From Bilabrum cf. latius (Eukaryota): DNA of 64,000 nt. The notes beneath the pieces were generated by a model. That model ran no database searches, had not been told where the DNA came from, and saw only the letters and a program-made list of their open reading frames with translations. Below are positions 1 through 64,000 of this stretch, piece by piece; the first letter of the stretch is position 1; every line of letters begins with the position of its first letter. The position numbers and the translations under genes are program-made. The DNA lies in assembly GCA_965178125.1 (NCBI GenBank), contig OZ237773.1, positions 62,001 through 126,000 of the forward strand. Reading direction: 5' to 3'.

Positions 1-2209
1 GCGCAGGCCAAATCACCACGCCGGCGGCATGGTCAGAGCTTCCCGACGCCGCCGAGCGGCAGGACCGCGCCAGGATCTCAGGATGGTTCGCGGACATTTC
101 CAGGAAAGCCGCCGCGCAGTCGAAGGCCTCTGCCGCCGCGTTCCCGCTGAGGCCCCTCCCTTGCCTGCACAGGCTGCCCACCAGCGCGAGCCCCAGGCAG
201 CGGAGCGGCCGGGGGCTGCCCTGGTCCCTTGACGCGCTGTTCGAGCCCAGGGGAGGTAACTGGCCAATCGCTGCGTCCAGGGAGGGTGCCGCAGGGTCCT
301 CGGATGGGATCGCCCGCAGCAGCAGGTCTGCAGGCACTGCATCCACCACCGCTCTGACGATGAGGTCGGTTGCAACCGAGGCCCGGCCCACGAGTGGGAG
401 GCCCGAGGGCAGCGAGAGCCACGGCGACTCCTACCTTCCATCGCTGCTGCCACCCTCAGTCTGAATCTCTCGCACTTCTCCTCCTCGTTGGCTACCTGCA
501 AGCGCCCCGTGGCATGCCGTGGACAGGAGAGACGAGGCGGCCGATGCCAGGGACCGGGTGGCAAACCCAGAGCCCTCCGCTGCATCGCGATCCATCGCTG
601 CCTGTGCCTGTTCCCTGGCAGCCTGCAGGAGAGCAGCAGCGGCAAAGCCAGCCGACTGTGTGCTACAGGCCCCCCTGCACCCCTGCTACACCACCAGCCC
701 GCACGCGATGGAAACGAGGGAAGGAAGGATGCTGCCGCTTGCATCATCATGCAATGCACCCACAGAATCGCCGCTGCTCGAATCAGCCGCAGAACTGCCA
801 GTATGGGCCCCTTCGCCCGCGAATGCCGCCTCCACCTGCGCAGCCAACGAGTCGAGGAGAGACGCGTCTCCTGCGTTGCCACCCGGCACACTGCCCAGCG
901 CCAGAACCATTGCAATCGTCACACCTGGCAGCGCAAGTATCTCCTGCAGGCACCTGAGCGCCTGGCCGGCCTCCTTGGCGGCTGCATCAGCGTCCCTCGC
1001 GCCCACTGGCGCATCCGTGGCGCCCTCAGTGTTGGTATCAGTGACGGAGGGCAGCTCGCCTGCCTCACCCGGGGTCATGCCCAGAGTGCGGCAGCATTCG
1101 CTGATTTTCTTCCACACTCGGCCCACGACAGCTCTCAGGGACCCCTAGATGCCACACCCAGCACTTCTTGCCGCATCTCTCTGCCTCTGTCTCGCTTTAC
1201 CGCGATCGGCCGATCCTGCGGCCCCGAGCCCGGGCCCAGACCCAGCTCTCGGCCCAGCAGCCGACCCATCCACGCTGAGTCCGAGCGACTCCGAATCCTT
1301 CCCGCCTTGTTCCTCGGCGTCCTGGTCCTCCTCCAGCAGGACCAGCGCAAAGGCGGCCCGAACCACCCCGTTGCTGCAGTGCAGTGCATCCGCGATGTCC
1401 CCCAGGCCGGGAGGCAGGGCCAGCAGCGCCGCCTCGCTCCCTGCGGCGGCCGCCCCCTGCAGCAGGCCACGTTCCGTTTCATCGGTCTCTTCAGGCTGAT
1501 TTGCCTGCAAAATGCCGGACCTGGCGCCCATCTCAGTCGCCGCACCGATTGGCGCGTCGAATGTGAGGTCACTCGCGTCATCGTGGCCAAAGTCACTGCC
1601 CCCGTCATGGCCAGCCCCACTGGTCGGGCTCAAACCACCCAGCGCGCCGGCCCGTGGCTGTATGATTGTAGCAACCACATCAGCGCATGCCCGCACCACC
1701 ACGCAAGTCCGTTCCTCCCTCGAAAGCGGAACCAAGGATTGCGCGGCGCCGCTTCGCCTGCCCTCGAGCGATTGCGCGCCGACCCTGGCTGCCCTGACGA
1801 TCGCGTCGCAGGAACCCTCCGTGTCGTTTGTTCCCTGGGGAACAGAGGCCTCCCGGGTCCCGTCTCCGCGCAGCACAGCGGCCCCGGCAGCCGCCGCCGC
1901 CTCTGGCTCCGGCCCGCACAGATCCGCCAGGAGAGCGGAGGCGGCTGGCCGAAGGGCTTGAGCGCCAGCGCGCGTGGCAAGCCAGCCCGCGTATCGCGCC
2001 ACCAGGTACAGGGCGGCGGCATCGGGCTGCGCAGGAGCAGTCTGCTGCAAGTTTGTGCTGGAAGGCGAAGGGAGCGAGCGGAGGCCAACCGAGGCGGCGC
2101 TGGGGGCGGCTGGATCAGCGCCTGCCCCGCTCGATGCTGCGCCACTTGGAGCGTTCGTCTTTGCTTTCCGTGCGAGGATTTCCTCCACGCTGACTGCCAC
2201 CTGAGACAT
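1..2209 (-). CDS. Large Ala-rich alpha-helical protein of unknown function, 5' part (continues beyond the window start)
   Basis: ATG at 2209 (MSQVAVSVEEILARK). Track ORFs 1145..2254 and 686..1126 are in one frame. That frame stays open to base 1 if TAGs at 1145, 686 and 431 are read as sense, and it contains no TAA or TGA. Confidence 0.7.
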
Positions 2210-3054
2210 GGATGTCGCAGAGGTTAGTGATGCTGATCCACGAGAATCTTGCACCCGCCCGCTTTGAACCTGAACCGTAGGGAACGCAGCTTCTGCATGC
2301 CGGGTGTCGCTACTGCCAGCAAGATAAGCGTCTCTGTTCGCTGAAGCACCAAGAGTTTGCTATTTTGGGTTTGTTGCGTTGAGGCAGCCCATCGTAGTTC
2401 GAGTACGTTCTCGTGTCAGCGCGCTTGCCAGCTGCTTGGCTGAAGAACAATTCTAAAGGGTACTGTGCATATCTATGATGAGCCTAGTTGCGCCAATTTC
2501 GTTCGTTCTCGCTGTCTCTGAGTTGCTGTCTCGTGGCAACCAGCCAGGGAATCTAGACGGCATGGGGGCAACCAGCCCTTCCAGCATAAGTGATGAGCTG
2601 GCCTTGCCTTCTAAACTCTAGTGAGCTGGCTGCATCTTCCCATTTCGGGATGGAGCAACCTATGCTCTCCTTGATTTCAACGACATGGTGCAGCAAAGCG
2701 TCTCCCCCGGAGAGTGTGTCCTAGTTTGGGATGTTTTCGGGGCCAATAGGAATGAAGCTGACTGATTGACTTGTTTGGATCAAGTAAGTATCAGATACAG
2801 CGAACCGAAGCAAAGAGGTTCGAAGCACCCTCTTTCTACTCCAATAATCTCTGCTGGCAAGCCGTCGAACCTTGCGATACCGATTCCGAAAGTTCGTTAT
2901 GTGGTGGAGCTAGCCGCGGTCATGAGCCTCATTGAGAGGTCAACAACTTACCCGACCTGTGAAACAATCTAGGTGCACTAACGGTAACCAACCAGCAGCA
3001 AATGGCGTGGCAGAATATATGCACGTCAGAATCTCAAACCAATCAGATAGACAA

Positions 3055-5678
3055 TCAGTACAAGCCACTGCTGCCCTCGCTCGTACCGGGAGCTTCATTC
3101 TGGTCCCCATACCCCTGGCCCATCCTGCGGTACTGTTGCAGCGTGCTCACTCTCCCCTCGAGGCTCCTGGCTCCTGCCGAGCTGATTTCCATGGCTTCCT
3201 CCGTGGTGTGGCCTGTCCCGTGCCCCGAGCTGCGGGCACCTCCGCCCATGTTCGAGATCGAGCTCCCTGTCCCATCCGTGATCAGCACGCCAATGTCCTC
3301 CAGCCCCTGGGCCTCGGCCTCCTCGGCCATGGCCGCCGCCCGCCGCATGATTGCCGCCCCCATCGCACCGCCGAGGGCGCGCGCGATTTCACTTGAGTCA
3401 CCATCGCCGTCACTGGTTTCCTTGAAATCATCCACGCCGATACTAGCCCCAGCCAGAGGCCGTTGCTGCTGCTGCTGCTCCTGGTTCCGGCGAGGAGGGG
3501 GGTTAAGTGCCGCCTGTCCATACAACCTGCTGGCTGCCTCGCCCCCCCCTGCCAGCACGCTGCGAGCGAACCTGCCCCGCTTCAGTGGATGCTGCGCCTC
3601 GCCTCGGGCAGCCGTAGCAGCTGCGTTGCCTGCACTTGTGCCTCCCTCGGCCTTGGCCTGCGCTGGACCAGAGCCGTTGCTGCTGCCCTGCAGGAACGTG
3701 ACAGGCTGAGAACCCCTAGCACCTGCAGGAGCAACGCCCCCACCTGCGGGGTCATCCGGTGCATCGTGCCCCCCCACGTCGGGGTCAGACCCCTCCGATC
3801 CCTCGGGGAGATGCAGCACCCTGCTCCTCCAGCTCCGAGTCGTGCCGATGGCCTCCCCGCTCTGTTCCCTGCCGCGCCGGGGGGGCTGCTGCTTGGAACG
3901 GGTCTGCCCCTTCCTGAGCGCCCGCGCAGCTCCACTGCTCGCAGTACCAGGTTCCTCGATGGCAGGCCCCTCATCGATGGCAGCCCCCTAGTCGGACCTC
4001 GTGGTTTTGCCTGAGGCCGCGGTGCTCTTTCCGGTTGTGGTAGGCGGCTCTACCCTCTGGCGACCTAGCCACGATGCCGCCCGTGAGAGCGTGTCGCTGG
4101 ACGAAGAGGACCTCCCCGTAGATCCACCGGTGGATTGCTTCCTGCTGCCCTTCTCAGAGCCCAGGTGCCTGCCTGCGCCCGTGCCCATCCAGCCCATCCC
4201 TCCCCCAAGGTCGCTGGTGGACTGCGACTGGCTAGAAGATCTCCACTCACTGCCGCTGGCCCTGTATCGGCTCATGGGCTCCTGGGAGCCGATCGTGTCA
4301 CCGACCAGCACAGACCTGCCGGATGCGCTTGCTGTGCCCGCGGCAGCAGCAGCAGCTTGGTCCCCTGACCCCCGCAGTGCCCTGCCTCCATCCCCTTGTG
4401 TCCTTCCCATCTCTGGGCTGAACACCGCAGGCAAATGCTGCTGGTTGCTGCCGTGAGCAGCCTAGCTGTCTTCTTCCAGCGAGGAAGCTGCTCCTAGATG
4501 CACTAGCTACACCCCTGGGCTCTGGCTACTGTGTGTGCTTCCCGGTCGCTGGTTCGGTCGTCCGTCTCCTGGGCCAGTTGCTGCACGACTAGGCCGCCCC
4601 AACTGCTCCTCGCTCTCCTCCTCCGGCACAACTCCAAGAGGCTTCCCGCCCATGGCACCACCGACGCCTGATCCGAAGCTCTTGCCGCGTCGATGCCCGC
4701 CGCGCCTGGGCATGCTCGGGTGTGGCGCCGACGACGTCCCCCACTTGGAGACATCGCCCGCAGCATCGGCCTCGCTGCCAGTGGTTCTCATGGTCCTCAT
4801 CCTCGCGAGGCGGGCCAACCTGAGGATCCGTCGGGCGCTGGAGCCGGGTGGTAGCACAGGGGGTCCCCTGGGGCGCGGTCTGTTCGGGCCGCTGGAGGAG
4901 CTCCACTTGTTGTTCCCGTGCTTGTTCCCGTGCTTGGTGCCCTTGGCCGATGCCCGCCTGGAGTGCCGCACCGGTTCCTCGCTTTCGTCCTAGGAGAAAT
5001 CATCCGACCATAGCAGTTCTGACGAAATAGAGTTCCTGCCCCCTCCCCCGCCCCCTTCCTCCTCTTCCAGACTGGTCCTGGACGCGTACAGGATTGCATT
5101 CACGAGCTCCGCTGCTCGCTCCCTGGCCTCATCGGCGGATTCTGGCGAGAGTGGCGAGCGGTCCCACTGGTCTCCGGACCACGACCTGGATCGTGGGCGT
5201 GATTTGCGCTTGGTAGCGGCGGGCTCGTGGTCATCTACCGCTGCTTCACGCCCCGTGATGTCCCTCGGCAGGTAGCCGGGTGGAAGGAATCGCCCGAGCT
5301 CAGTCAACACCAGCGGTTGGGAGTCTAACTCTCGGAGCTGCCGCACGAGGATTTTAATTCGAGCTAGGCGGGCATTGAATGGGACGGATGGGTCGGACTT
5401 GGACCGCAGCCGGGTGCCTTTGATCCCTCTCGTGTGCCCGTCCGGGCCGATCGTCGACTGCGCTCCTCTCGCCCCTAGCACTCCAATGGAAGCTGAGGTG
5501 CTCTTTACATGTCCATGCATAGTTTTTGGGGAGGTGTCGCGAGCACTGCTTGAAGAAAGCCCCCGCTTTCCTTGCTTGCTGCTCTCCGGCACGATCTTCC
5601 CAGCGGCTGCCCTCTCATCGGTCGCCTTCTCCCCACCAACATGCTGCGTGTCGTCAATCTCTCTATCAGTACCAGTTT
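3055..5678 (-). CDS. Low-complexity (Gly/Ser/Arg-rich) hypothetical protein; 5' end uncertain, probably spliced
   Basis: Track ORFs 4990..5592, 4507..4971, 3988..4434 and 3055..3819 are in one frame, separated only by TAGs (4990, 4507, 4462, 3988). It ends at TGA 3055-3057. An upstream in-frame TAA at 5686 and a candidate acceptor (gcgcag, AG at 5679-5680) imply a further 5' exon that I could not place. Confidence 0.65.
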
Positions 5679-6543
5679 CTGCGCGTTACAGGTGGAGAAT
5701 GGAGCCAAAAGTAACGAAACGGATGCATCGCAAGAGCTTTTGTCAGCACGAACAGCAAGGAGAGGTCTATGCCAAGAACGCTGAAGAGCAATAATGCCTT
5801 AGAATTGGAAGTCCTAGGGTCCCATTCTATCACATTTGTTGATAACTGGACTGCAAGTAGATGCATACGGCCACCCACGTAGGGGAAGCCTTCGGCCCGT
5901 ATGTGCGAAGTTCCGAAGTTAGCCTTCATCGAATCGATACCGTTAATAGTACTAGTCAATGTGCCCGTGCTATACACCACTAATGCTACGCCAACTGCAC
6001 GATCTCTATCGATACGATGCACTCACGCGCGTTGCTTTGCAGTGAGTGTGCTTGCGTAATCCAGCATCTGCTTGCGCACGCACCCATCAATTGAATCAAA
6101 CAAATCAAATACTGGTGTGGTCTACTGGGCCCTGTTTAGGACAAACTGCCCTCTGGCGCTTTTAATAACCCCTTCAATGAACTGTGCTTCGTTGAATATT
6201 TCATACTGCCGGCACTGGTGCTGTCGATCCAGGTGCCGACAACTTGAAGGTGCAAGAACACTCGCCGTGCCGAAGAGCTTCTCATCTCGAATCGAGTCAC
6301 AGATAAAGAATTATTGCTTAATCATGCACATAGATAATACATGTGGCGCATCCGTTCGGTTTTGGCCGCGGATTATCATGATATAGTAGTATCGCACCAT
6401 TGGAGAACGCGCGACCTCCGCTGCTAGTTGCCCGCAAACGATTTGGAAGAATGTTAACATACCAACATGGCAATAAACTAGCAGATACTTGCTTGTACAT
6501 GGCCTGCCTCCAACTTGCACGCGTAGCCGCTCGCATAATCTTG

Positions 6544-9260: not shown

Positions 9261-9770
9261 TCCATTTCTCTATTTCTCCGCAACACAGACATCAGGCTCC
9301 GTCGACCTCATCCGTGGTGGTATGGCTACAGCTGTAGCCCCCAGCGCCTACGCCTTTGGATACAGACCTAATAAGAAAAATATGAGGGCCACACGCGGCT
9401 CGCCTGCGTCTCCAGGGGCACGCAAGTCCAGCGAGAATCACATGGCTGCGATGGGTGAGACGCTGGCCTGGGAGGAAACCCTCTTATCTCGACGTGACGG
9501 GACCCGCGCGTCCTGCAGGATGCCGATACCTTCGCATTGTGCTCGAACAAATCTAGTATGAGCCAGCCCTTCCTGCTCCTAGGCCTGCATGGGACAAACG
9601 CCAGGAAGCAGTTTCCACCCAAGCACCCACCCGCATGCCATGCCTGTCGTGGCAACAGCCCTAACCCGTCGTGCGTGCATCCCACCTTCCTCATGGCATA
9701 TTCTCCCTACGCAGATACTGGCAGAGACCAAGTACTTCCTGCCCGCATGCAGCTCGAGGGGGGCGCTTGC

Positions 9771-15700: not shown

Positions 15701-15723
15701 AGTGTCATCATCATCTTCTTCCG

Positions 15724-15757
<34 letters not shown>

Positions 15758-16589
15758 TCAGCAGTAGTCGCTGTGCTGGATGCGGGCCACGTGCGCCGAC
15801 TGCGGGCTGTAGCAAGCCACGTCGCTGCAGGTGGACGCGCATTGGGCGGCTCAGGTGATCGGCTGGCGACTGGCCACGATGGACGCTGAGGGTGCATGGT
15901 CGCTGGAGAGCGGGGTGGCCGTGCCTCCTGCTGGTGACCCCGACGTGACGAATGTCACGCTACACGTGAACGAGATGCTGGGCCTGCGCACCGAGGCCAT
16001 CGCGCTCGTGGGGCATCTGCTGGACGACTCCACCGTGCGAGGATCGGATCCTCTGCAGGCCGACGGGTACCGCACGCAGGACACGCAGACTGGTGCAACT
16101 GAGACCCGGCCCGTGGGCAGCATCAACCCGGCCACATCGCTGACGCAGCTGCGGATCGAGCTGCAGCGATCGGGGGTCTTCGCTACGACGCAAGTGGTGC
16201 CTGCGCTGAGCCCTGCGCAACTCGCGTCGGCTATCTCTGGCCTGGTGGTTGGTATCCTGGGCGGGTTCACGTCTGCGTTCGCGCTGTTCGAGAAGTTCGC
16301 GGGCGAGAGGATGGTGTGGCTGTGCGGGCCTACGGGGCTAGTGGCCACGCAGGAGGAGGAGGAGTTGAGGAGGCAGAGGGAGGGGGAGTTGAGTGCCCCT
16401 GTGGCTAACACCACAAGACCAAAGGGCATACCAGGCAAGGTCGGTGCCCAGAGCACGAAGGGGGCTGCTCCTACTGGTGAGATTATGCCCATGCAATCAC
16501 CGATGTGGTCCGAGGATGAACGTCACTGTGCGAAGCAGAAGGAGGGCACGGAGGAGGGCACGAAGGCGGGCAAGAGGGAGGGCCAGTGA
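9771..16589 (+). CDS. Cell-surface receptor-like protein, about 2272 aa: signal peptide, RCC1/CRINKLY4-like repeats, BspA-like LRR tandem array, further LRRs, Cys-rich GCC2/GCC3-like repeats, about 3 TM segments
   Basis: One frame runs from MPLLIIPLACLLILSRTVSA to TGA 16587-16589 with no TAA or TGA. It has 16 in-frame TAGs (10167, 10338, 10554, 10629, 10671, 10719, 10884, 13887, 14148, 14403, 14460, 14493, 14694, 15153, 15765, 15810). Motifs include repeated ACGI...IHCWG, IQLPSSLTTIE.EAF, LDLSGN and C..CP.GT. Confidence 0.85.
10932..13633 (+). repeat. Coding tandem array of about 9 near-identical 303-bp (101-aa) LRR units
   Basis: The unit start IDMSSCDQ recurs at 10932, 11235, 11538, 11841, 12144, 12447, 12750, 13053 and 13356. 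The last unit is slightly truncated. Confidence 0.97.
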
Positions 16590-32846: not shown

Positions 32847-32889
32847 CGCTGACTTCTGGGAATCTTTGAAGTCCGGTACAGCCACGGGA

Positions 32890-49224: not shown

Positions 49225-49263
<39 letters not shown>

Positions 49264-52200: not shown

Positions 52201-55200
52201 CGACGTTGACTCGGCCTCGCTGTGGCTGCCTGTGACAGACCCAGAGGAATACGCGGCGCGCCGCAGGGCATCGGCACGCCAGGACATGGATGGCGGCGTG
52301 CAGGCAAAGCCTGGCGGGGGCACGCTGCTCAAGCCCGAGTTCGAATCGACGGGCGAGTCCTTCATGGCCGACATGCTGGCTATCGGAATGGACGAGCAAG
52401 CAGAGATCGAGCAGATGGCAACCAAGCCGTGGAGCCTTCAGTCCGGCAAGCCGGCGTGGAGGCAGGCCCAGATGCTGGGTCAAAAGGAGCTGCCAGACCC
52501 GCCCGTGAAGCGAGCTATTCGAGCTGGGAGACCGGCGTGGCTGAGGCTCCAGACGCAGAAGCGCGTGCTGCTTGCTGCCAGCCAGGGCAGCGGTGAGGTC
52601 GGTCGCAAGCTGAGGGCCATGGGCGTGGAGTCCTCGACAGAGAACGCTTGGCTGGCGGAGGAGAAGCTGGACCAGGAGAAGGAGGCCCAGGGCAGGCTAT
52701 CTAGGCGGGAAGGGGGCTACGAGGCACCGGGGACACCGGCAGAGGAAGGCGCAGGTGCATCGGGCGCTGACGTGACCTCGTCGCGCTTGGAGATGCTGTC
52801 AAGCGTGTGCCCGGTGCCACCCGCCCAGCTGCACGCGAGATCGAGACCCGAGACGCGCGAGGCAGGCGCATTCGCCACTGCTGGCCTTCTGGGGCTCTGC
52901 AGGCGACTTTGGTCGACCATCGGTGGCAGTGACACGTGGCTGGGTAGAGAGATCGGGCTCTCTGGCTGGGACTTGCCGGCGGACTCGTACAGCACGATGC
53001 ACGACCCATCGCTCGGAGACGCATCGCGCGGTAGTGCGGGCTTGGGTGGCGCTAAGCGCAAGAAGGCGAGTCCAAAGTGGTGGCTTCCTCGGCTGGCCAG
53101 AGAAGAGGGCCTATGGAGCACGCTTGAGAGCACGAGGCCGACCAGGCGGCGGCACGCGCTCTTCCCAGGCAGCCGGCTCGCAGCGGTGCCTGACACGGCA
53201 GTGCAGCTCGCAATCCCCACGGCGCAGCCCAAGCCAGCCACGCTCTGCTCGCGGGAGCACATCCGGGCTCTCTTTCAGCAGTATCAGGACAATATCAGGA
53301 AGACCATGGAGGCGGAGCGGGCGGCCAAACAGGCTCGGCTCAGTGCGGAGCTGCAGCGGCAGTCGAGGGAGCGGATCCAGATCATGAGCCAGGCGGCCCG
53401 TCTGCCGGTTGGTGCTGGCCTGCCTGTCCTCGGGGGGGCAGGAAGCGACGCAGTGGCAGCGGCAGCAGCCGCAATGGAAGGGGTGCGTGCTGCATCGGAC
53501 CAGGCGCCGATGCTCGGGGATGACACTGCGGGAAGCTCGACGCCGGGTACTCCTGCCGGGGCAGCGGCTTCCAGCGGGGCGAGCAAGGTGGCAGCCAAGG
53601 GCCGCGGCAGGGGCAGAGGGAGGGGCAGAGGGGGGGGCAGAGCTGCCTCCTCAAGCGACAGGGCAGCGGGTGCCACGCCAGCTGGTGGTACTACGTTAGG
53701 CAAGAAGCGTGGCAGGTCAAAATCGACAGGCAAGGCAAACGACAGCCGCTTGCATGCAGGATCAGAGGACAGTCAGGCGGCGGCCTCTGGCGGCGCGGGT
53801 ACGGCTGCAAGCGCCGATTCGGGCAAGGGCAAAGCAGCCAATCCCAAGGGGAGCAAGCGTCGCAGGAAAGGCAGCACCGGTGCGGCGACATCCACAACTG
53901 ATGGCAGCACTGCTGCTTCATCTGGCAGGCCGCAGCCCCTCAAGCTCAAGCTACCGGGCACGCAAGGGGGAGCAGTGCCCGCCGCCTTGACATCTGCAAG
54001 CGCGACCGCAGCAACGCCTGCGTTTGGCGGGGCTGGAAACGAGACGCCGTCGGGCATGACTCCGCGTCCAGGGAACGCTTCGATCTCCGGGCTGCTTACC
54101 ATGGTGCGGGCCTTTCAGTTCAGGCGGCAGCCTTTGCGGCTTCCAGTCCCGCCCTTCCCGCTGCCAGGCGTGCTACGTGTACTCGGTACTGCTGCAGGCG
54201 GGTCCATGTCAACGCTGGCGGGGTACCCATGGTTCGCGGCACCCGATTCTTCCCTGGTTGGGATGGGCAAGGGCAAGAAGAAGACGAGCAAGAAGGTCAA
54301 GGACGGTCACGCGTTCGCAGGACCGCTGCAGCTGGATCGGTTCGGCAGGGTGATCGTGAGGGCGGGGGCACTCGCGAAGATGGCCAAACAGGCCGAGTTC
54401 TCCGGGAGCTACCCCTTGTCATCCACCGGTGGGGCGGGTGCATTGGCTGAGGAACAGGCGGCGGCTGATGCAAGGCTGGATGCGAGAGGCATGCTGGCCC
54501 TGGATCCGTTCAACCCCTGCCTCCACGTGTATCCTCTGTACGTGCATTTGCTGGACTTAAATGCGGTCGCTAGCCAGCTGGGCAACATGGCGGTCAAGCC
54601 GGTGCAGACTGCTACCGAATCCACAGAGGGAGGCAATGAGGTAATCGCGTGGGTTAATGCGGGCGCGGCCAGCTCGAGGCCAACTTAGCCAATGGGTAAA
54701 CCTGTCATGATACCATACGGGCAGATCACTGCGCCCACGCTTGAGGCGGCGCAGCAGGTCTCTCAGGGCGGTAAGCGCGGGCACGGTGCAAGCGCGCACG
54801 ACACTGTGGCCAAGCTGCTGCACGTTGGCGACGACTCGAGGTCGATGCGGCGGCTCCTCGGTTCGGGCACGACTGCATCGGGTGGGAAGGGGAAGGGAAA
54901 AGGGAAAGGCAAAGGCAAAGGGAAAGGCACAGGGAAGGGCACTGCAGCGAGCAGCACGGCCTTGGACGTTCTTCACGACAGGCGCAGGCGGCAGCTGCAC
55001 CCTGTGCTTCGGGCGCACACGGAAGCATTCGGAGACCTCGTGCAATACCGACTGCCCTGTGTGATTGGCCACGCCGGGTGCGGCATGGAAGTAGCGTGTC
55101 TGGAGCACGCACCTGAGGAAGTCACGGCTGCAGTGAAGCAGGAAGGCCGGCACTCCGTATCTCACTGGGCCGTGCACATTGATCCCGAGACCTAGGGCGC

Positions 55201-56941
55201 CAAATGGGTCAAGTAGCCACTGGGCGATGCAGCCGACAGGCCCGGGCACCCCCAGCACCCTGCCGCGCATGCATCTGCGGGGACATCTACTTCTTCTTCT
55301 TCTTCCTATGGACACGGTGGCCCCTCTGTGGCCCATTCGAGCACAGAGGAGGATGCAGGCCAGAGTACCCCGAAACCAGGTGCTGGGGCCTCTACGCCAT
55401 ACACTCCGTCTTCCTCGAGGCATTCCGCGCTGCGGCGAGCCATGCAATCCCCGATGCCGCCGCCTCCCATGCCCGACAAAAATGTCAAGATCACGCTGCT
55501 GCGAAGGGTGGTGCAGCCCATGCCGGCCGCCTCGACTGCAGTGGAGGCAGGCGGCGACGCGGAGTTGTGGTCCCACTGCGAGACGTTGCCCAAGCGGTGG
55601 GCCAGCGTGAAAGGGCCGAAGAATGTGACGAGTGCTGCGAAGAGTACCGCTGGGCCGAGCAGCTCCAGTCAGAGCAACGGAGCAGCTGCCGCAGGAAATG
55701 CGGCTGGTGGGGCGGCGGGGCAACTGGTAGCTGCGGGTGGGGCCTTGGTCGGACCGGCAGTCGCAGGGACGGGCCCGGGAGGGTGCGACGGTCCCGGCGC
55801 TCCACGCGACTGGTCCTGGGGCCCGATCATTCGGATCTAGGGACTGGGCCATGCTCTTCTGAGCCGGCACGTGGGGGTGGTCAAACAGGCTCGCGATGTG
55901 GCCCAGGATGAAGCCAAGAGGCTCGCTGGGTACAACCCAAGCGCGCAGGTTGTGGGTTCCGATTCCGCGCCTGGAGGCAGCGGTAGCAAGTCGAAGGCCA
56001 AGGGGGGGAGAGGCAAGTAGACAGGGCGTGGAAGATCCAAGAGCGTCTCGAAGGGACGAAAGGGGTCGGACTCTGCCGTACAACCGGCTGAGACTCCCCT
56101 CGTGCAGACGCCCGCCGGTGCTTTGTCTGTTCCCGGCACGCCGGCAACGCCACAGCAGGGTCAGGCGGGCAAAGGCGGCAAGTCAGGTGGCAAAGGTGGA
56201 GGTGGTAAAAGAGGCGCGAGCAAGTCAGGGGGCAGTAGCAGCAAGGGCAGTGGTGGCAAAACTGGTGCTGCTGCGGCGAAAGGCGGAAAGGGCAAGGGTA
56301 GAAAGACCCCCGCAGCGAAGAGCAACGCAGGAGGCGCAAGGAGCCGACGTGGATCCGGCCAGTTTACAGCAAGCTCGGGCAAGCCACCGGCTGGGATCAT
56401 TGCTACGGGCGTCCCGACCTTACCGGCGCAGCAGGCATCGGTCCCTGGCCCGCCCGCTGCCCGTGCACCGGCGGACCGGCCAGCCACGACACCCGCTGCA
56501 AGCGATTTCATCAACCTCGCAATCCAGTCCCTGCAGCCGCAATAGCAGCTACAGCAGCAGCTGCGGCCACAACAACAGCAGTAGCAGCAGCAACAGCAGT
56601 AGTAGCGGGCCGTTGCTCATGCCCAGCCGATGGCCGTGCCAGCTTAGCACGGCCATTTGCCCTCTGCCTACGGCGCAGGGCCTGGTGTACCAATGACTGC
56701 TGCAATGCAAGCGGGTGCACCGCAGGGAAGGGTGTTGGGATAGAGTACCGGAGCAGCTGGCGCGCCCATCTCTTCCGCAGCTTTCATGGGGCTTGCCCAG
56801 CCCCAAGGATTGATGCATCCAACGGGGAGGATGGGCGTGGGACATGCGCCTTACCAGCAGGCTGGTCACTCGGCGCAGCAGCAGCAGCGGTCGCACGGAT
56901 AGTCGTGGGGCCAGTAGCACCGCAATGACGGACATCAATAA
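47234..56941 (+). CDS. Giant low-complexity, probably nuclear protein (RG repeats, Lys/Gly tracts, polyQ tail), about 3199 aa; first exon tentative
   Basis: One frame from 47545 to TAA 56939-56941 is interrupted only by about 21 TAGs. A candidate first exon 47234-47436 joins through a phase-2 intron 47437..47544; ATG 47591 is an alternative start. I recognise no globular domain. Confidence 0.75.
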
Positions 56942-56964
56942 TTTAGGGACATCCTTTACTTTAC

Positions 56965-57198: not shown

Positions 57199-57549
57199 CC
57201 CACCCCACCCCTTTACGAAGGTGCCGAAATTTAGATCTTGAGGAGCTGAAGCAGCCGAAAACGACGCCAGCTACGATAGGTTCGCTGAACGGAGAGAAAG
57301 TTCGGCTAAAGGCAATCTAGACTCTAGAATCATTGACGGCTACGATCCACTTTTAGCAAACCTAGTATCCTTGATCGGACTGTCAGTACCTTATTTATCC
57401 AGCTGCTTGTGTTAGGTAAATTAGGGCTTGTTCGCATCGGAAGAGCTCGTTGTTGACATTATGCAGCCGTTCGTTCATTTGTTTCGCTGAATGTTTGTCG
57501 CAATTGTTTGCATTTTGGAGATGATTCCCCTGCGTTTGTTCTTCACCGT

Positions 57550-59533
57550 ATGATGTGCGCCTTGGGTGTGGTCACACGGTTGCGGACTAAGCACTTGGCG
57601 GGTCTTTGGGCTCGCCACCTGTCATCCTGTGTGTCTACGTTTGTCTGGCGGCCTAGCCGACTGAGCTCTGCCAGCCAATGCAACGATATACATTCAATTG
57701 TGAGGCCTACTCAACTGATATCTACTGGGTCAACTGGCTTTGTCAGATTCAGAAGCAGCAAAAAGGAGCAGAACGTTCTCGACGACAAGGTGAACAGCCT
57801 TGAGCATGAGAAGCTCCGAAAGCAGGAGGTAGATGTGGCAAGACTATCCGAACGAGTGGTTGAAGTTGAGCACTAGTTTACGAGTGCCACAACGGATAAG
57901 GAGATGCAGAGGCAGGAACGGATGATGCAAGTCATGGAGCAAAGACTTGAGAAGGCGCAGAGGCTTGCAGAAGAGGCTAGAGCGCGGCTTACACGCATCG
58001 AAGCTGCCAAGCGATTAATCAATGATTTCGATCATCATAGACTGTCCGAAGAGTCCGCTCGATCTGTAGCTGAGGTGGTTGCGTTGATCCAGGGGACGGA
58101 AAGGATCGGGATGAATCTCGATGTGCAGCGGAAGATGGTGCCGATGCTAGTCAAGCCATTTCCTCGGGTGCTATCTACCCCATCGAGCGAGGAATCGTCC
58201 GCTGGGAGTGCGTCCACAAGTGCGCTAGCAGAATAGAAGCGACGTGTCGGCCCACAGTTGATCTCTTCCATGCAGATGATCAACAGGATTGGGTCCGGTG
58301 CAAAGGAGTTTGCCGAGAAAATCCGTGATACCCTTGGCGATGATAACCTACAGAATAAAAGTGTAGTCGTGGTCGCATAGGCTAGTGGATCGGGGAAATC
58401 GAAACTATCCATCGATGCTTCATTGGTTGAGGGTATTCCTGCTATCGTTCTCACGACCATATCTGAGGGCGACAACTTGTCTGACCCTTTTGCTACCCTC
58501 CATGCCGCATACAACGATTATCTACGGGACGAAGAGGCTGCAGCTTCGAGGTATTCGGCCAATGACAGTCAGTATTTGGATTCCTTGCGAGGGTGCTACT
58601 TCGAGGTTTTGATTGGGGCTCACATCGAGTGGACAGCTGCAGTCCTCGAGCAACTCGCTACCGACGGGAAGACTCGGTCATACAACGAGACCATGTTTGC
58701 ACTGCACCGGTGCAGAATGAATGGTTTGGCGCCGCAGGGTGTGGCTTCGATCGTAAAACAACGACTGCTCGGACTACAAGCAATCCATAGCTCATCCGGC
58801 CTTCAAGACCTGAAGCTAAAAGTGCGTCAGTACAACTTATACGCTCTCAAACGCCTGAGAGCATCTATCAGGGGCTGCTGTGGTATTGCACCCGATGCAG
58901 ACAAGCCCATCATCACAGTCGACGAAGTGCCGAAGCTGATTACGTAGTTCTTTGGGACGAGAACACGCCCCGAGGACTCGTGGATCAGGTTCTTGTCATT
59001 CGCGGCTTAGTCCTGTCTGAATCAGAATATCCCCGTCGCTTTCGTTGGGACCTTTATGGAGGTGCAGGTATTGCTGTAGAAGAACTTTTCACCGTTGCGC
59101 GGTTGCGTGACGATGTTCGCGAACGCAGACTTCATCAGTACAGAGCAGTTCTGGTCATCCTATGTGCCAACGTTGCCAGACACTCCACCTGAATGCTTGG
59201 CAGGTTTGCGCGAGCTCGAGGGAAGACCAATTTTCTTCTTTGACCTGCTGTTAGCACCAGCAGTGCGACGAGTGCTCCGCTCGGAACACCTGGAGTTAGT
59301 GTCGTCGGATGTAGCAGGTACAAATTGCGAGACAGCCCGTCGCATGGTTACAGCGCTGCTTTTGGTCCTTCCCAATGCTCGAAGAGAAGGTATCAAAAGG
59401 ATGGTAAAGAGAACCCTGCATTTCGTGAACCGAAACGACACCCGTCTCGGAGTCGCCGGAGTGTCAACATCTGAAGAGAATCCGAACTTGAAGAGCATGC
59501 TGAGCAGCGTGTTCCTTGACGGACGACATTTGC
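57550..59533 (+). CDS. Crinkler-type (CR-NTPase-like) P-loop NTPase, N-terminal part of an interrupted gene
   Basis: A coiled coil is followed by Walker A VVVVA*ASGSGKSK (TAG 58378), Walker B IITVDE and a sensor-like strand PVAFVGT. The frame is open through TAGs 57874, 58234, 58378, 58945, 59008 and 59077, and runs on to TAA 59608 inside the inferred insertion. Start uncertain. Confidence 0.65.
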
Positions 59534-62500
59534 AACCGATCAGGACGCGGGTAAAGGGGACAAAGGGCGGTCCGTCCAAGCTAGTCGTGGATAGGCAAGC
59601 ATGGTATTAAGGAGACAGAGTCTGATTCGTTGTTGACGTCAAATGAGATGATAAGCGTCTGTGCGATGAGGATGGCTCTGCGAAGAAGGAGAACGCCGCA
59701 ACACCTTGTCCGTAGGTGGGAAGAGGAATTGTAGCGTTAGACATCGTAATCTGATTAACGGAAGAGGCAGGCCACGAAGAGTGGAGGTTGGCATTTCTCC
59801 AGTCAATCGCCTCCATTCGGGGTGGAAGAGCTCAGGACTGACAGATCGTCTTGAATTCTTTTTGTTGTGGTCTCATGTCTTCGGGTGCGGGTGCAGATAC
59901 AGTTCAGCCGGAGCGCTAGGGCGTGATGGCGCGGCTTCAGCAGTTTTGGCGTGGCATTTTCACGACGTTGGCCTTGAAAGAACCCGGTTTTCAACGTGCT
60001 ATTTTCCTTTTTGAGGCATGCTTTGGGGCCTTGTCTGATCCAATGCAATGGGCATCGGTGACCGGAGTGTGTGGGTTTACCGCAGAGCGGCTCCTCGCGC
60101 TAGAGGCGCAGTGGAACGAGGCCATCAAAGGCGTACGGCGTGGGTCTCCGAAGCGCGCACAGATAATTGAATCAATGATTCGATACTTGTTGACAGCGGT
60201 GGTCACCATGAAGGGCGTGCATGGACAACCCTATTCCACGGTTCTGCCTGACTCCTTCCCGTCCTTCGCATCCTGGCTTGAACTTCCTGAGCCGACCGCA
60301 ACGGCGCAGGACTCGGACACCTTCGTACTGTCTCGCAAGGCGGAGGATGCCTACGCACATGCGCACGCCGGGAGCGCGGTGTCGACCTCAAGCGCCCTGG
60401 CAGCAGGGGCTGCGGGTGGAGCTGTGGGTGGAGCTCCAGCAGGTGCCGGGCCTCGTGCCGGCAGCCGGCCGCGGCAGGCAGGCCGAGCACCGGCCCGGCA
60501 GCCGCTGGGGTCAATTCCCCGCGATCAATCCCTTGCACACGCTCCAGGCAGTGGCCCCGGGCCTGCAGCGAGCCTTGGCGGCCTGGCGGCGGTGCCCAGC
60601 GAGTGGAGCGCTGCGGTGCGAGCGTGGCTGCATCCCTGGACGGCTGAGCGGCAGTAGGCCCTGAAGGAGACCGAGGACGAACAGATGCGTCTGTCGATGG
60701 CCGTAGAGGCTGCGTTGTTGGCAGCGGGCGGATGGCCGGAGGCGGACTCCACTCTCCGCGCCCTCGATGGGGCCATGACGAAGCAGCTGCGGGCGCTGGG
60801 ACGGCGCATGCAGCATGCACCACAGAGCCAAGAGCACGCCATTATATTGGCGATCGCGTTCCTCGAACGGGTGACGCATGAGCAGCAGCGAGCAGCTGAA
60901 ACAGGCTTGGAGATGCCGGCTCTCCACCAGGTGGTCGCACTCGTCAGGCGCCATGCCAAGGAGCGGAAGCTACCGGCGGCCACGGGTGCGGGTGCAGCTG
61001 ACCCGGGTGAGTCCTTGGTGCGTGGTGTGGTGTAGTCTGATGTGGTGTAGTCTGCGTTTGTCCCCGCTTCGTTACTCCGTGATCACGGGCCAGGCCAAAT
61101 CAAAGCCACCGAGTTCCGGGGGATGTTCGTTCAGATCGCGAAGGCGGAGCTGATTGCAGCACTGCAGGCGAGCAGCGACTGCCCCCCGCGGATGTCGTTG
61201 GCAGCTACCTCCAAGTACCTTACGAAGGCGGCAGGCATCTTGGCCTCGGCAATCACCGGGGATGACGAGCGCATCAAGAAGAGCTGGGCAGACCTGCTCC
61301 AGCTCAAGAGCGATGATCCGCTATTTCCTGATCTCGCGGTGCCCAGACATGAGGACTTGGTGCACCCTCGGCCGTTCGCGCTGTTCACCTACGCACTGGT
61401 GCGGGCATATGCACGGGCGGTTACAGCAGTGGTGGAAACGTACGCCACGTCAGGACCTGCCTGGCCGACCCCACCGGCCCAGTCGATGTCGCCGTACAGG
61501 CCTGAGGCGGATGTGGAGGAGTTTCATGCCGGTGCGACAGCAATCACGCAGTCCCTGGCGTCCTGGGGCAGGCAGCTGTGGAAGCTGCAGCTTCTGGCGC
61601 GCACTGCAGGCGGCAGCTTCGGCACAGGGCTCCAGACGTCTCGTGCAGCAGCGAAGGACGTGTTCACTGCCATCGTGCTGACCGCGCAGGGCAAGATGGG
61701 AATCGCAGTGCCAGCGATTCGCACCAACAGTCAGGCCGATATGATGGCGGCGAGGGACCAGGTGCACACGCTGATCACGGCGTACCTCAAGGGCGATGAC
61801 CTTGAGGACTCTGACCCGCTCGAAGGCGTGGAGCCTGGCCGCGTAGTGCAGGTCATCCGTGCGTGCTTGTGCCCAGAGGGCCCGCACGGCATCGGACCAG
61901 CACTGCTGAGCAGCACGCCACAGGGCCAAGCACTCGGAACGGCGGCGGCAGTGGCCCAACTGGAGAAGACCATCGAGCTCGCCCAGGGCTCCTCATGAAG
62001 GCCAGCACGCCCGTGCCGCCACAGCAGGTGGCGGCCGGGCAGGCCTTCAAGGAGACGGCGGCGCCTCTACACGCAGGAGAGGCGCCGCCTCCGGCGACTA
62101 CATGCACGGCGCCTGGAGCAGGGGCTCAAACGCTGTGTTCGGGAATGGAGGCGGGGCCGTGCCAGAGGACTTCTCTCACCTCTGGTACAACAGGACCTGT
62201 CCTTCCGTGGGTAGGATTGTGCGCCGGTCGCTTCGGTGGCCGGCTTCTCGGGATGGCTTCAGCAACGGACAGTTGGGTCGGGGAACACTCAACAGCTGAA
62301 TGAGGAGCGGAACGTATACGACGGCAGTTTCGGACGGCAGGACGTGGTCACTAATGCAATTGGGCAGCGGTGGTTACAGTAGCCACGACGTCATCGTCAA
62401 GTCAGCGGGGAAGTACCAGCGGAGGGTGCAGCAGCAGTGCATGCGGCCCAGGAGATCCGTGTCAGCTACCCTGCAGCATCGACTACGTCAGCAGCGTTAC

Positions 62501-63273
62501 CGAGGCTTCGGCCACGCACCCCTACGCCACGGGTGCGCGACCAGGGCCAAGGTGACCCTGACTGGCAGCTCTGCAAGCCAGTAGTGGACCGTAAGCGGCC
62601 CCTGCTGTCCTTCGCAGCGTGTCAGGTGCTACATCGAGGCATCGGGAACAATCAATCCCACGCCTTGGTGGATCCCACTGCCGGGGGCAGTGGTTGGGTC
62701 CTCCGAGCCTGGAGCTCGGAGAGGTAGGGCGTGAGTTCAGATCTGAGCAGTTCTCCATCGGAAGAGGACGAGCTGCTGGGCTCAAGCCAAGGAAATACGT
62801 GGGGCACTTCTGACTGGGCCGAATGGCTATCCGCCTCGTCTGTCGTGCCAGTGGAACCGTGGGTTCCTAGCAGTTGGGATGACTCAGCTGCGCCATCGCA
62901 AACGTGGGCAGCCTGGATGCGATCCCTGCAGGATGCGGAGGGGCGCAGTCGTGCCAAAGAGGCACCGCCAGCGCTTGGTAGACAGCACCAGCGACTGGTG
63001 GCCCACCTGACAGCGGACCCCATGGTGCTCACGGGCGACCCCGAAGCAGCACGCGCCACCAGAGCGAAGCAGGTGCAGTGGGCTACGTACCTGCGTGCAG
63101 CGTGCCCGCCTCGTACCTTCCGAGCCAAGGACTGGAAGGCCATGTCACCGGCTGAGCGGACGCTGTGTGGATTTGCCCACGGTTTCCCGATGGGCCGCAC
63201 AGCAGCTGTCCAGCAGCAGGTCAAGCTGCCGACAAACTCCATCCCGACTGAGGCTGCGGCTGCAGTGCACTGC
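59534..63273 (+). mobile_element. Putative 3'-truncated DIRS/Ngaro-like retrotransposon fragment (gag-like ORF1 plus the start of pol)
   Basis: It lies between two halves of the NTPase-nuclease gene. It holds a 707-aa ORF1 and a second ORF ending WKAMSPAERTLCGFAHGFPMG...PTNSIP...AVHCEL, which resembles the region just before RT in DIRS-order elements. No RT core, RNase H, tyrosine recombinase or terminal repeats are seen. Boundaries are approximate. Confidence 0.5.
59875..61998 (+). CDS. ORF1 (putative Gag-like) of the inserted element, 707 aa
   Basis: ATG 59875 to TGA 61996. Track ORFs 59923..60657, 60685..61035 and 61123..61998 join through TAGs 59917, 60655, 61033 and 61048. Confidence 0.6.
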
Positions 63274-64000
63274 GAGCTGGGAGCCAGATGTCAATGAGAG
63301 ATGCAGTAAAGAATGGTGTGTTCGTCTGGGACCCAGAGAGGGACCCGAACAACGTCTTGCAAGAGCCACTGGCGATCTAGGCTGTGGAACAGGTTGGCTT
63401 GGAAGAGGTTCTTAACAAGGAAGCTAGCGATGACTTCATGCTGCACAGCTGGGCTGTAGACGTGGTGCACAATGATTACCAGAAAGGCAAACTGCTGGAG
63501 TAGGCAGTGGCCTGGGTGCTGCTGCGGGCGTGTTCGGGCGGCCCAGTGCCGTTGCAAGATGCCCTGAAGGGCCTTGTCGTTAGCAAGGTGGTGAACGACC
63601 GCACCGCAAATTATCTCAGCAGCACCAAGATCGATATCTAGCACGCGGCGCCAGTATGTAGGAAGTCTTTGGGGACATTGGAGCTTGACGACTGGAGCTG
63701 CACGGCAGATCCTCATACGGTATGGCACTCGTTCGACTAGTATTCAGGGATGGGCCTCTTCATGCGCACAGAGACTGGCAGCCCAATCGGGATCCAGGTG
63801 AAGTCGGGCAATGGTTCTTTTGCTGACGCTGTAGCCAGCTGCACCATGGGCTGGCAAGGTCTGTCGAGGGAGGAGGGAAAAAGTTACTAGCAGCACGCCG
63901 CTCGTGCTGCAGTCCTCAACTCTGACATTGCGTGCAGCGACCAGCCCCACGTGCGTTTGGTGGTGTCAGCGAATGGCTTCTCGACCCATGCGATTAAGGC
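63274..64000 (+). CDS. C-terminal part of the Crinkler-type gene: helical region plus restriction-endonuclease-fold domain (runs off the window end)
   Basis: This frame is absent from the ORF track because of TAGs at 63378, 63501, 63639, 63738 and 63888. It reads MSMRDAVKNGVFVWD...LQEPLAI*AVE...KGKLLE*AVAWVLL...SGMGLFMRTETGSPIGIQVKSG...HVRLVVS with no TAA or TGA for more than 700 nt. Confidence 0.6.

What the first reader, a model, noticed from the sequence alone, without database searches (positions are those of the whole stretch)
1..64000. Non-canonical nuclear genetic code: UAG is a sense codon throughout the window
Seen: about 100 in-frame TAG codons (hand count) interrupt nearly every gene on both strands. 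The same frames contain no internal TAA or TGA over stretches up to 9.4 kb. TAGs sit inside conserved domains: two in tandem in the BRAP2 domain, one directly after a copper motif of the oxidase, and others in P2X, Gemin2 and a Walker A motif. One is codon 4 of the oxidase. Random decay would also produce TGA, TAA and frameshifts, and leaky readthrough could not get past 12-21 stops per gene. Established: reassigning UAG without UAA is rare in nuclear genomes; known cases include the fornicate Iotanema, a rhizarian and some ciliates. Inference: this GC-rich genome does not look like those lineages, so it may be an independent reassignment.
Basis: partly seen in the sequence, partly recalled or inferred. 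Interest (0 to 1): 0.97.

Follow-up and report, generated by a model that had tools for sequence, protein, structure and literature searches.

The report
Protist genome reads TAG as glutamine
This stretch of a GC-rich protist genome uses the stop codon TAG as an ordinary amino-acid codon, most likely glutamine, while TGA and TAA still end genes; this is a rare code change, and I could not match the organism to any published case.

Summary
If TAG is read through, the window (61% GC) resolves into 19 long coding frames covering 82% of it. They hold 113 in-frame TAG, no in-frame TAA and no in-frame TGA, whereas the two off frames hold 44/60 TAA and 254/337 TGA. All 15 gene ends are TGA (13) or TAA (2).

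Spliced, poly-A-tailed transcript contigs from three public runs match the DNA letter for letter across 20 of 24 TAGs examined. This excludes editing, micro-introns and base-calling error.

Glutamine is the best reading:
- All four well-aligned TAG positions compared with two close relatives pair with Gln, and the three whose codon could be read pair with CAG.
- TAG sits in poly-Q runs as often as Q does.

One conserved oxidase site, Phe in 101 of 112 homologues, argues against it.

A relative on a metagenome contig uses TAG in frame too and ends RPL9 with TAA.

The organism is unplaced, with no named RPL9 above 59% identity. Its GC content and stop usage fit neither Amoeboaphelidium, Iotanema nor the phyllopharyngean ciliates.

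The decoding tRNA and eRF1 could not be examined, because no genome is held.

Verdict: a real UAG-to-Gln code, and probably a new occurrence of a known variant.

The parts
47489..56941 (+). Longest frame: 3150 codons, 22 in-frame TAG, ends at TAA. No Pfam family. The C-terminal poly-Q runs are interrupted by TAG.
   Evidence: After the TAA the sequence turns AT-rich.
48275..48277 (+). TAG codon that the 85%-identical relative P0376 reads as Gln.
48734..48736 (+). TAG codon aligned to CAG in the relative L001. The ORF of relative P0376 ends exactly before this position.
48767..48769 (+). TAG codon aligned to CAG in the relative L001, inside a conserved block.
22317..30107 (-). Frame of 2596 codons with 12 TAG and a partial RING finger; ends at TGA.
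9498..16589 (+). Frame of 2363 codons with 16 TAG: BspA-type and other leucine-rich repeats plus ephrin-receptor-like Cys repeats and a membrane anchor; ends at TGA.
16904..20701 (-). BRAP2 / RING / zf-UBP ubiquitin ligase gene with 7 TAG; ends at TGA.
   Evidence: BRAP2 82 bits, zf-UBP 84 bits.
19934..19939 (-). Tandem TAG TAG inside the BRAP2 domain.
   Evidence: The homologue columns are E77/A25/D4/Q2 and V44/T19/I17/R10 and others.
36078..38624 (-). Multicopper oxidase frame with 3 TAG. Only the TAG at 37167-37169 is in a conserved motif.
37167..37169 (-). TAG directly after the HPxHxH copper motif. RNA contigs of X7 cover it unchanged.
31242..32909 (-). Armadillo-like gene with 8 TAG. All 8 lie under RNA contigs with no differences.
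33747..35426 (-). Paralogue of the armadillo-like gene (38% identity) with 6 TAG.
40699..43320 (-). P2X-like gene. It has four GT..AG introns, at about 41663-41845, 42455-42614, 42887-43007 and 43060-43276, with 2 TAG in its exons; ends at TGA.
   Evidence: The upper bound 43320 is approximate.
43676..46027 (-). Gemin2 (SIP1) gene frame with 4 TAG; ends at TGA.
45941..46999 (-). RPL9 (uL6) gene: two exons, intron at about 46425-46582, no TAG in the mRNA, stop TGA, poly-A site near 45941.
57457..59610 (+). Frame of 717 codons with 6 TAG, one of them in a GxxGxGKS-like motif at 58378-58380; ends at TAA.
59842..61998 (+). Frame of 718 codons with 4 TAG; ends at TGA. No family.
2..2779 (-). Frame of 926 codons with 7 TAG; runs off the window.
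3055..5685 (-). Frame of 876 codons with 4 TAG; ends at TGA.
38867..40537 (+). Frame of 556 codons with 4 TAG; ends at TGA. No family.
63252..63998 (+). Frame of 249 codons with 5 TAG; runs off the window.

Best explanation
The window is nuclear DNA of a GC-rich, intron-poor eukaryote in which UAG has been reassigned from stop to sense. UAG is translated most probably as glutamine, while UGA (dominant) and UAA still terminate translation.

Shown here:
- TAG is as common in the coding frame as out of frame, while TAA and TGA are absent from it.
- Mature transcripts keep UAG.
- Close relatives have CAG/Gln where the window has TAG, and the reverse also occurs.
- A related organism shares the trait.

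Inferred from the published cases, not shown: a tRNA-Gln with anticodon CUA, which pairs with UAG but not with UAA, together with an eRF1 that no longer recognises UAG.
For: 1. Frames. With TAG read as sense the longest frames are 3150, 2596 and 2363 codons, against a maximum of 1130 under the standard code; reading TAA as sense adds nothing. Over 17,406 codons, counts for the coding frame and the two off frames are TAG 113/107/113, TAA 0/44/60 and TGA 0/254/337.

2. The frames are real genes. Pfam finds BRAP2 plus RING plus zf-UBP, leucine-rich repeats, Cu-oxidase, SIP1 and Ribosomal_L6.

3. Gene ends. The 15 gene ends are 13 TGA and 2 TAA.

4. Transcripts.
   - Contigs of runs X5, X7 and X8 skip five GT..AG introns that X1 (the run holding the whole stretch) does not skip.
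   - One ends in a poly-T/A tail at 45941.
   - Depth differs by more than 1000-fold between neighbouring genes.
   - The table of differing letters is empty.
   - The listed pieces cover 20 of 24 in-frame TAGs in 31001-47500.

5. Amino acid.
   - Against the syntenic metagenome contig L001, TAG at 48734 and 48767 aligns to CAG inside a conserved block, and one L001 TAG aligns to a window CAG.
   - The 85%-identical protein P0376 has Q at the window's TAG 48275 and ends exactly before TAG 48734.
   - TAG has at least 2 Gln among its 4 nearest neighbours in 7 of 112 cases (6.3%). The figure is 38 of 769 (4.9%) for Gln and 200 of 16,361 (1.2%) for other residues; binomial p = 5e-4.
   - One of 8 TAG positions in the paralogue alignment pairs with Q.

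6. The clade. L001 carries 4 in-frame TAG in a 480-codon ORF, and its RPL9 ends at TAA.
Against: - In the oxidase, the TAG aligns in register with a residue that is Phe in 101 of 112 homologues (M 6, Y 2, V, I and L 1 each). The neighbouring, nearly invariant Gln (99 of 112) is Lys in the window.
- One TAG sits at the first Gly/Ala position of a GxxGxGKS-like motif.
- The BRAP2 columns under the tandem TAGs favour Glu/Ala (Q in 2 of 108) and Val/Thr/Ile (Q in 1 of 108).
- In the paralogue alignment, 7 of 8 TAG positions pair with H, I, G, N, K, T or S.
- In the L001 alignments, 4 of 7 TAG positions pair with A, D, T or P. All four lie in poorly aligned or variable stretches.
- A crude neighbour-composition likelihood ranked W, H, Y, L and N above Q.
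- Tyr is also enriched in Q-rich context, at 3.8%.
- No tRNA was found in the window or in L001. No genome is held, so the decoder and eRF1 are unseen.
- Contigs drop rare variants, so partial RNA editing is not excluded.
- Whether UAG also terminates some genes is untested.
Confidence: 0.8

Rival explanations
1. UAG is sense but is not cleanly glutamine. Either it encodes another residue (Tyr, Glu or a hydrophobic one), or it is read ambiguously by near-cognate tRNAs because eRF1 lost UAG recognition without a dedicated tRNA.
For: - The oxidase site is Phe, Met or Tyr in homologues.
- The first BRAP2 column favours Glu.
- The neighbour-composition test ranks W, H and Y above Q.
- Tyr is also enriched near Gln runs.
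- No tRNA was seen.
Against: All four well-aligned TAG positions in close relatives pair with Gln, and the three whose codon could be read pair with CAG, which differs from TAG by one transition. None pairs with a Tyr, Glu or Leu codon. TAG's frequency in poly-Q context equals that of Gln.
Confidence: 0.1
2. UAG has a dual, context-dependent meaning: sense inside genes and stop near mRNA ends, as in Condylostoma, the karyorelicts or UAA in Blastocrithidia.
For: - Gene ends here were defined by TGA or TAA, so a terminal TAG would have been read through unnoticed.
- The oxidase frame after TAG 36513-36515 looks non-coding.
- TGA is followed directly by TAG at the end of the P2X-like gene.
Against: None of the 15 gene ends needs TAG. 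RPL9, whose C-terminus is conserved, ends at TGA here and at TAA in L001. The oxidase tail is better explained by an unrecognised intron or frame change into ORF 35641-36495.
Confidence: 0.07
3. Both UAA and UAG encode glutamine (the common code 6, as reported for Amoeboaphelidium, hexamitids, some ulvophytes and many ciliates), and TAA is merely rare because the genome is GC-rich.
For: TAA is the rarest stop triplet in the window, at 198 copies on the + strand.
Against: - CAA makes up 22% of CAR codons (172 against 606). About 30 in-frame TAA would therefore be expected beside 113 TAG, and none is seen.
- Two long frames end at TAA, followed by AT-rich sequence.
- The relative's RPL9 ends at TAA.
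Confidence: 0.02
4. The TAGs are not translated. They would then be decayed pseudogenes, C-to-T base-calling errors, sites edited back to CAG in RNA, or codons removed by tiny introns.
For: None found.
Against: - Decay would also create TGA, TAA and frameshifts, and none occurs in frames of up to 9.4 kb.
- Independent contigs from three other runs in two other studies match with no differences and are colinear across 20 of 24 TAGs.
- Relatives from other samples break their standard-code ORFs at the same places.
Confidence: 0.01

Closest known systems
Iotanema spirale (Fornicata): UAG = Gln, UAA and UGA = stop (Panek et al. 2017, PMC5304391; passages read)
   Same: The codon table is the same: only UAG is reassigned, it goes to Gln, and it is a minor Gln codon (about 8% there, 12.7% here). 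The predicted mechanism is a tRNA-Gln(CUA) plus an altered eRF1.
   Different: Iotanema ends 104 of 119 genes with UAA. Here 13 of 15 end with UGA, in a 61% GC genome.
Protocruzia tuzeti and two phyllopharyngean ciliate lineages: UAG = Gln only (McGowan et al. 2024, PMC11687900; passages read)
   Same: UAG alone is reassigned to Gln, and UAA is kept as a stop.
   Different: Those ciliates have 27-54% GC and prefer UAA as stop. The window has 61% GC, introns of 121-217 bases and prefers UGA, and a source-run contig reaches 212 kb. Nothing in the hit lists points to ciliates.
Amoeboaphelidium protococcarum (Aphelida): non-canonical code, cited as UAR = Gln (Karpov et al. 2013, not seen; cited in PMC5304391 and PMC6299283)
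   Same: It is a non-ciliate protist that reads UAG as Gln.
   Different: TAA is reported as sense there and is a stop here. Genome GC is 40.5% and 39.9% there (Table 1 of PMC10608142) against 61% here. The BRAP2 tree does not put the window with Fungi plus Metazoa.
Rhizarian exLh and TARA phyllopharyngean MAGs (UAG = Leu); Scotinosphaera (UAG = Ser)
   Same: UAG is decoupled from UAA.
   Different: The amino acid differs. Here, well-aligned relatives show Gln/CAG, and never Leu or Ser.
TAG-to-Gln recoded gut phages (layout of NCBI table 15), noted earlier in this scan on other DNA
   Same: The same codon takes the same new meaning.
   Different: Those are phage genomes carrying their own suppressor tRNA and using the recoding for late genes. 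Here spliced nuclear genes of a eukaryote are affected throughout.

Membership tests
Nuclear code UAG = Gln with UAA/UGA = stop (Iotanema-type, table 15 layout) | In-frame UAG throughout bona fide protein-coding genes | tested here: met
   113 TAG in 17,406 codons of 19 frames, against 107 and 113 in the off frames. Pfam domains are present in these frames.
Nuclear code UAG = Gln with UAA/UGA = stop (Iotanema-type, table 15 layout) | UAG is present in the mature mRNA (not edited, not spliced out) | tested here: met
   Spliced contigs of X5, X7 and X8 cover 20 of 24 TAGs with no differing letters. The run kinds are the tool's guesses, and contigs can hide minor variants.
Nuclear code UAG = Gln with UAA/UGA = stop (Iotanema-type, table 15 layout) | UAG aligns with Gln in close relatives | tested here: met
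   All 4 well-aligned positions pair with Gln: 48275 to Q in P0376, 48734 and 48767 to CAG in L001, and one L001 TAG to a window CAG. Four further positions in poorly aligned stretches pair with A, D, T or P.
Nuclear code UAG = Gln with UAA/UGA = stop (Iotanema-type, table 15 layout) | UAG falls on Gln-compatible columns of deeply conserved domains | tested here: inconclusive
   Only 4 such columns are available: BRAP2 E77/A25/D4/Q2; BRAP2 V44/T19/I17/R10 and others; BRAP2 M30/E16 and others; oxidase F101/M6/Y2.
Nuclear code UAG = Gln with UAA/UGA = stop (Iotanema-type, table 15 layout) | UAA and UGA stay terminators | tested here: met
   No in-frame TAA or TGA, against 44/60 and 254/337 off frame. 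Gene ends are 13 TGA and 2 TAA. The relative's RPL9 ends at TAA.
Nuclear code UAG = Gln with UAA/UGA = stop (Iotanema-type, table 15 layout) | A tRNA-Gln with anticodon CUA | not testable with these tools
   No tRNA in the window or in L001, and no genome is held.
Nuclear code UAG = Gln with UAA/UGA = stop (Iotanema-type, table 15 layout) | eRF1 altered in its stop-recognition motifs | not testable with these tools
   eRF1 is not in the window, and no genome is held.
Code 6 (UAA and UAG = Gln) | In-frame UAA at sense positions | tested here: not met
   0 in-frame TAA where about 30 would be expected from the CAA:CAG ratio.
UAG = Leu codes (rhizarian exLh, TARA ciliate MAGs) | UAG aligns with Leu | tested here: not met
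   0 of 4 well-aligned positions in relatives and 0 of 8 paralogue positions pair with Leu. Leu appears in 5 of 108 and 1 of 112 sequences in the conserved columns.
Ambiguous stop/sense codes (Condylostoma, karyorelicts) | The same codon also terminates genes | tested here: inconclusive
   No gene end needs TAG (15 of 15 are TGA or TAA), but the ends were defined by TGA or TAA.
Genus Amoeboaphelidium (organism identity) | Genome GC near 40% and TAA used as sense | tested here: not met
   The window is 61% GC, against 40.5% and 39.9%. TAA is a stop here.

The most novel reading that the evidence does not exclude
This would be an independent, so far unreported origin of the UAG-to-Gln code (UAA and UGA kept as stops). 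It would sit in a deep-branching, GC-rich protist clade that terminates mostly with UGA, with at least three genotypes in public data. It would be the first such reassignment known from a GC-rich genome, where AT-pressure 'codon capture' cannot have made UAG rare.
Probability: 0.4. Interest if true: 0.8.

Novelty: new member of a known kind. Interest (0 to 1): 0.66.

Why it matters
Nuclear codes in which UAG and UAA have different meanings are few; the papers I read list Iotanema, Protocruzia, some phyllopharyngean ciliates, a rhizarian and Scotinosphaera. The two cases whose stop usage I read about (Iotanema and the phyllopharyngean ciliates) prefer UAA as the stop, and the ciliates have 27-54% GC. 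A case with 61% GC and UGA as the main stop would test how far mutational bias explains which stop codon gets captured.

On the practical side, any gene prediction on this assembly or on its relatives in metagenomes made with the standard code will cut most proteins into pieces. The database entries P0376, P0377 and P0127 appear to be such pieces.

Tried and rejected
- **Whole genome.** None is held, so no tRNA scan, no eRF1 check and no genome-wide codon inference were possible.
- **RNA genes.** ARAGORN and Rfam found nothing in the window, and ARAGORN found nothing in L001.
- **Earlier scan notes.** There was nothing on this genome or on look-alikes. A word search returned only recoded phages.
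- **Sequencing runs.** No RNA holder is listed on record. Parts of 31001-47500 without RNA cover say nothing.
- **ESM Atlas.** I did not send that sequence anywhere else and made no further Atlas call.
- **Paralogue alignment and neighbour-composition likelihood.** Neither decides the amino acid, and the second ranks Q only 11th.
- **MAFFT of 121 oxidases.** It timed out and was replaced by a motif count.
- **Lineage: unresolved.**
  - The RPL9 exon has relatives at 97% and 91% identity from unnamed sources. The best named hit is the diatom Astrosyne at 59%.
  - The BRAP2 tree (58 rows picked by hand from the 120 listed hits; quick search, SH-aLRT support only) places the window on a long branch. 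Its neighbours there are oomycetes, an unidentified EukProt entry and unnamed sequences, with support 90-94, and it falls outside Fungi plus Metazoa.
  - The oxidase's nearest named relatives are Rhodelphis, diplonemids, Balamuthia and a chytrid, which gives no lineage signal.
  - I could not trace the accession prefix of the EukProt entry.
- **Aphelid hypothesis.** Rejected on GC content and on TAA use.
- **Loose RNA end at 38527.** It has no match elsewhere in the window.
- **Literature.** Eight searches found no paper describing a GC-rich non-ciliate with UAG-only reassignment to Gln. The library lacks most subscription journals and supplements were closed, so this is not proof that none exists.

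Full report
**What the window is.** The window is 61.4% G+C (39,304 of 64,000 bases; 55-67% per 4-kb bin). It holds no tRNA or Rfam family. It is eukaryotic nuclear DNA. Transcript contigs skip five introns with GT..AG ends on the minus strand. RPL9 carries a poly-A site. The genes found include RPL9, a BRAP2/RING/zf-UBP ligase, Gemin2, a P2X-like channel, a multicopper oxidase and leucine-rich-repeat and armadillo-like proteins.

**The observation.** I listed stop-to-stop frames under four schemes.

| Scheme | Longest frames (codons) | Frames of 500 codons or more |
|---|---|---|
| Standard code | 1130, 1045, 1000 | 9 |
| TAA read as sense | 1130, 1087, 1000 | 10 |
| TGA read as sense | 1375, 1130, 1087 | 35 |
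| TAG read as sense | 3150, 2596, 2363, 1265 | 18 |

Reading TGA as sense gives many medium-sized frames because TGA is the commonest stop triplet, but none exceeds 1375 codons.

Nineteen TAG-permissive frames cover 52,269 of 64,000 bases. Over their 17,406 codons, TAG occurs 113 times in frame and 107 and 113 times in the two off frames. TAA occurs 0, 44 and 60 times and TGA 0, 254 and 337 times. The zeros follow from how the frames were chosen. What does not follow is that such frames exist, that they carry Pfam domains, and that TAG is not depleted in them at all.

The 15 gene ends inside the window are 13 TGA and 2 TAA, and after the TAA at 56939-56941 the sequence turns AT-rich.

The count of 113 is an upper bound. 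One TAG (46574-46576) lies in the RPL9 intron. A few near frame starts or ends may be untranslated.

- The oxidase TAG called 'codon 4' directly follows an ATG whose role as start is unverified.
- The P2X match is below Pfam's cut-off, at 18.5 against 27 bits.
- The 'Walker A' protein matches no P-loop family in Pfam; its only hit, GAUT_1, is weak and below the cut-off.

**Are the TAGs in the RNA?** One search found runs holding window 37001-47000. X1-X4 hold all of it. X5, X7 and X8, from two other studies, hold 40-48% of its words, and their kind is the tool's guess ('RNA?'; it marks X5 'probably DNA').

I laid them on 31001-47500. The contigs of X5, X7 and X8 behave as cDNA:
- They skip 41663-41845, about 42455-42614, 42887-43007, about 43060-43276 and about 46425-46582, each with GT..AG ends. 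X1 shows none of these joints and runs contiguously across them.
- One contig ends in a poly-T run at 45941.
- Word depth is several thousand over RPL9 and zero over 38701-40350.

The table of differing letters is empty for all four runs. The pieces listed (32 of 607) cover 20 of 24 in-frame TAG codons of the frames in that stretch, three of them in all three runs.

So the major transcript form keeps UAG and is colinear across it. This disposes of editing, micro-introns and base-calling error as explanations. Because contigs drop rare variants, partial editing is not excluded.

**Relatives.** The RPL9 exon finds unnamed proteins at 97% and 91% identity and nothing named above 59%.

The 91% relative lies on a 4064-base metagenome contig, L001 (56% GC). 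L001 has the same gene order as the window: large ORF, RPL9, Gemin2. It has 4 in-frame TAG in a 480-codon ORF, and its RPL9 ends at TAA. The trait therefore belongs to a small clade, and TAA is a stop in it.

The next RPL9 relatives (L002 and L003; 57% identity, 67% GC) show long ORFs without TAG.

**Which amino acid?** The evidence for glutamine is as follows.
- In the window-L001 alignment, TAG 48734 and TAG 48767 both face CAG inside a strongly conserved block. One L001 TAG faces a window CAG. Four other TAG positions, in poorly aligned or variable stretches, face A, D, T and P.
- A HMMER search of all 1.84 billion representatives with 47966-48898 found only two proteins. P0377 is the L001 ORF. 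P0376, at 85% identity, has Q where the window has TAG 48275, and it ends exactly before TAG 48734, as an ORF called under the standard code would if it carried the same TAG.
- TAG lies in poly-Q context (at least 2 Gln among the 4 nearest residues) in 7 of 112 cases. The figures are 38 of 769 for Gln and 200 of 16,361 for all other residues; p = 5e-4.

The evidence against is as follows.
- The oxidase TAG aligns in register with a site that is Phe in 101 of 112 homologues, next to a Gln (99 of 112) that is Lys here.
- One TAG occupies the first Gly/Ala position of a P-loop-like motif.
- The BRAP2 columns under the tandem TAGs are mainly Glu/Ala and Val/Thr/Ile.
- Paralogue pairs give Q only once in 8.
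- A crude neighbour-composition likelihood does not favour Q.

I weigh the close-relative codon pairs most. TAG and CAG differ by one transition and would be synonymous under this code. Distant conserved columns number only four.

TAG would then be 113 of 891 Gln codons, or 12.7%.

**Why UAA is not reassigned.** CAA makes up 22% of CAR codons, so about 30 in-frame TAA would be expected beside 113 TAG. None is seen.

**Mechanism.** By analogy with the published cases, a tRNA-Gln with anticodon CUA would read UAG but not UAA, and eRF1 would have lost UAG recognition (Panek et al. 2017, passages read; McGowan et al. 2024, passages read). Neither component could be examined here, so this part is inference.

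**Who is it, and is it known?** I compared the window with the published cases.
- The literature I could read lists UAG-only-to-Gln for Iotanema spirale, Protocruzia tuzeti and two phyllopharyngean lineages. It lists UAG-to-Leu for a rhizarian and some TARA ciliates, UAG-to-Ser for Scotinosphaera, and UAR-to-Gln for Amoeboaphelidium among others.
- Amoeboaphelidium genomes are 40% GC (Table 1 of PMC10608142).
- Iotanema ends 104 of 119 genes with UAA.
- Phyllopharyngeans are 27-54% GC and prefer UAA.
- The window is 61% GC and ends 13 of 15 genes with UGA.

Placement failed. A quick BRAP2 tree puts the window outside Fungi plus Metazoa, on a long branch near oomycetes and unnamed sequences, with support 90-94 and no bootstrap. 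The RPL9 and oxidase hit lists give no consistent signal.

Eight literature searches found no matching report. The library lacks most subscription journals and supplements were closed. Karpov et al. 2013 and the Amoeboaphelidium genome paper were not seen.

**Verdict.** The reassignment is real (about 0.97). Glutamine is the best-supported meaning (about 0.8). It is a known kind of code, and this is probably a new occurrence of it. Whether it is an independent origin in an undescribed lineage (about 0.4) needs the whole assembly.

Noticed in passing
window 10883-14020: The leucine-rich-repeat gene holds about ten nearly identical tandem protein repeats with no TAG at all. The opposite strand is open for 1045 codons across them, a mirror ORF that is probably not a gene.
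   Followed up: no
window 35641-36515: After TAG 36513-36515 the oxidase frame looks non-coding. A TAG-free ORF in another frame (35641-36495, minus strand) encodes a plausible C-terminal part with a membrane anchor. An unrecognised intron or a frame change in the Ser/Ala/Gly repeat region is likely.
   Followed up: partly
window 40754-44930: One X5 transcript contig runs from inside Gemin2 through its stop (43676) into the spliced P2X-like gene. The two same-strand genes therefore have overlapping or read-through transcripts, and the first P2X intron (about 43060-43276) lies downstream of the Gemin2 stop (43676), between the two coding regions.
   Followed up: no
window 40696-40701: The TGA stop of the P2X-like gene is followed at once by an in-frame TAG.
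   Followed up: no
window 34301-34850 and 36501-37050: Summed contig depth jumps by 10-100-fold in all four runs over a His-Arg dipeptide repeat and over the Ser/Ala/Gly-Ala repeats. This is simple-repeat cross-matching, not expression.
   Followed up: no
window 36930-38537: The multicopper oxidase is of the bacterial CueO/Thermus-laccase type. Its nearest named eukaryotic relatives are scattered: Rhodelphis, diplonemids, Balamuthia and a chytrid. That suggests a patchy, possibly transferred family.
   Followed up: partly
L002 1-13684 and L003 1-4426: These are metagenome contigs of 67% GC whose RPL9 is 57% identical to the window's. Their ORFs reach 1304 codons without TAG, and their RPL9 ends at TAA, so they appear to be standard-code organisms. 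Their kinship to the window is unknown.
   Followed up: partly
window 45827-45832: A second tandem TAG TAG lies in the Gemin2 frame upstream of the first plausible Met run, so it may be in the 5' UTR. X5 RNA covers it.
   Followed up: no
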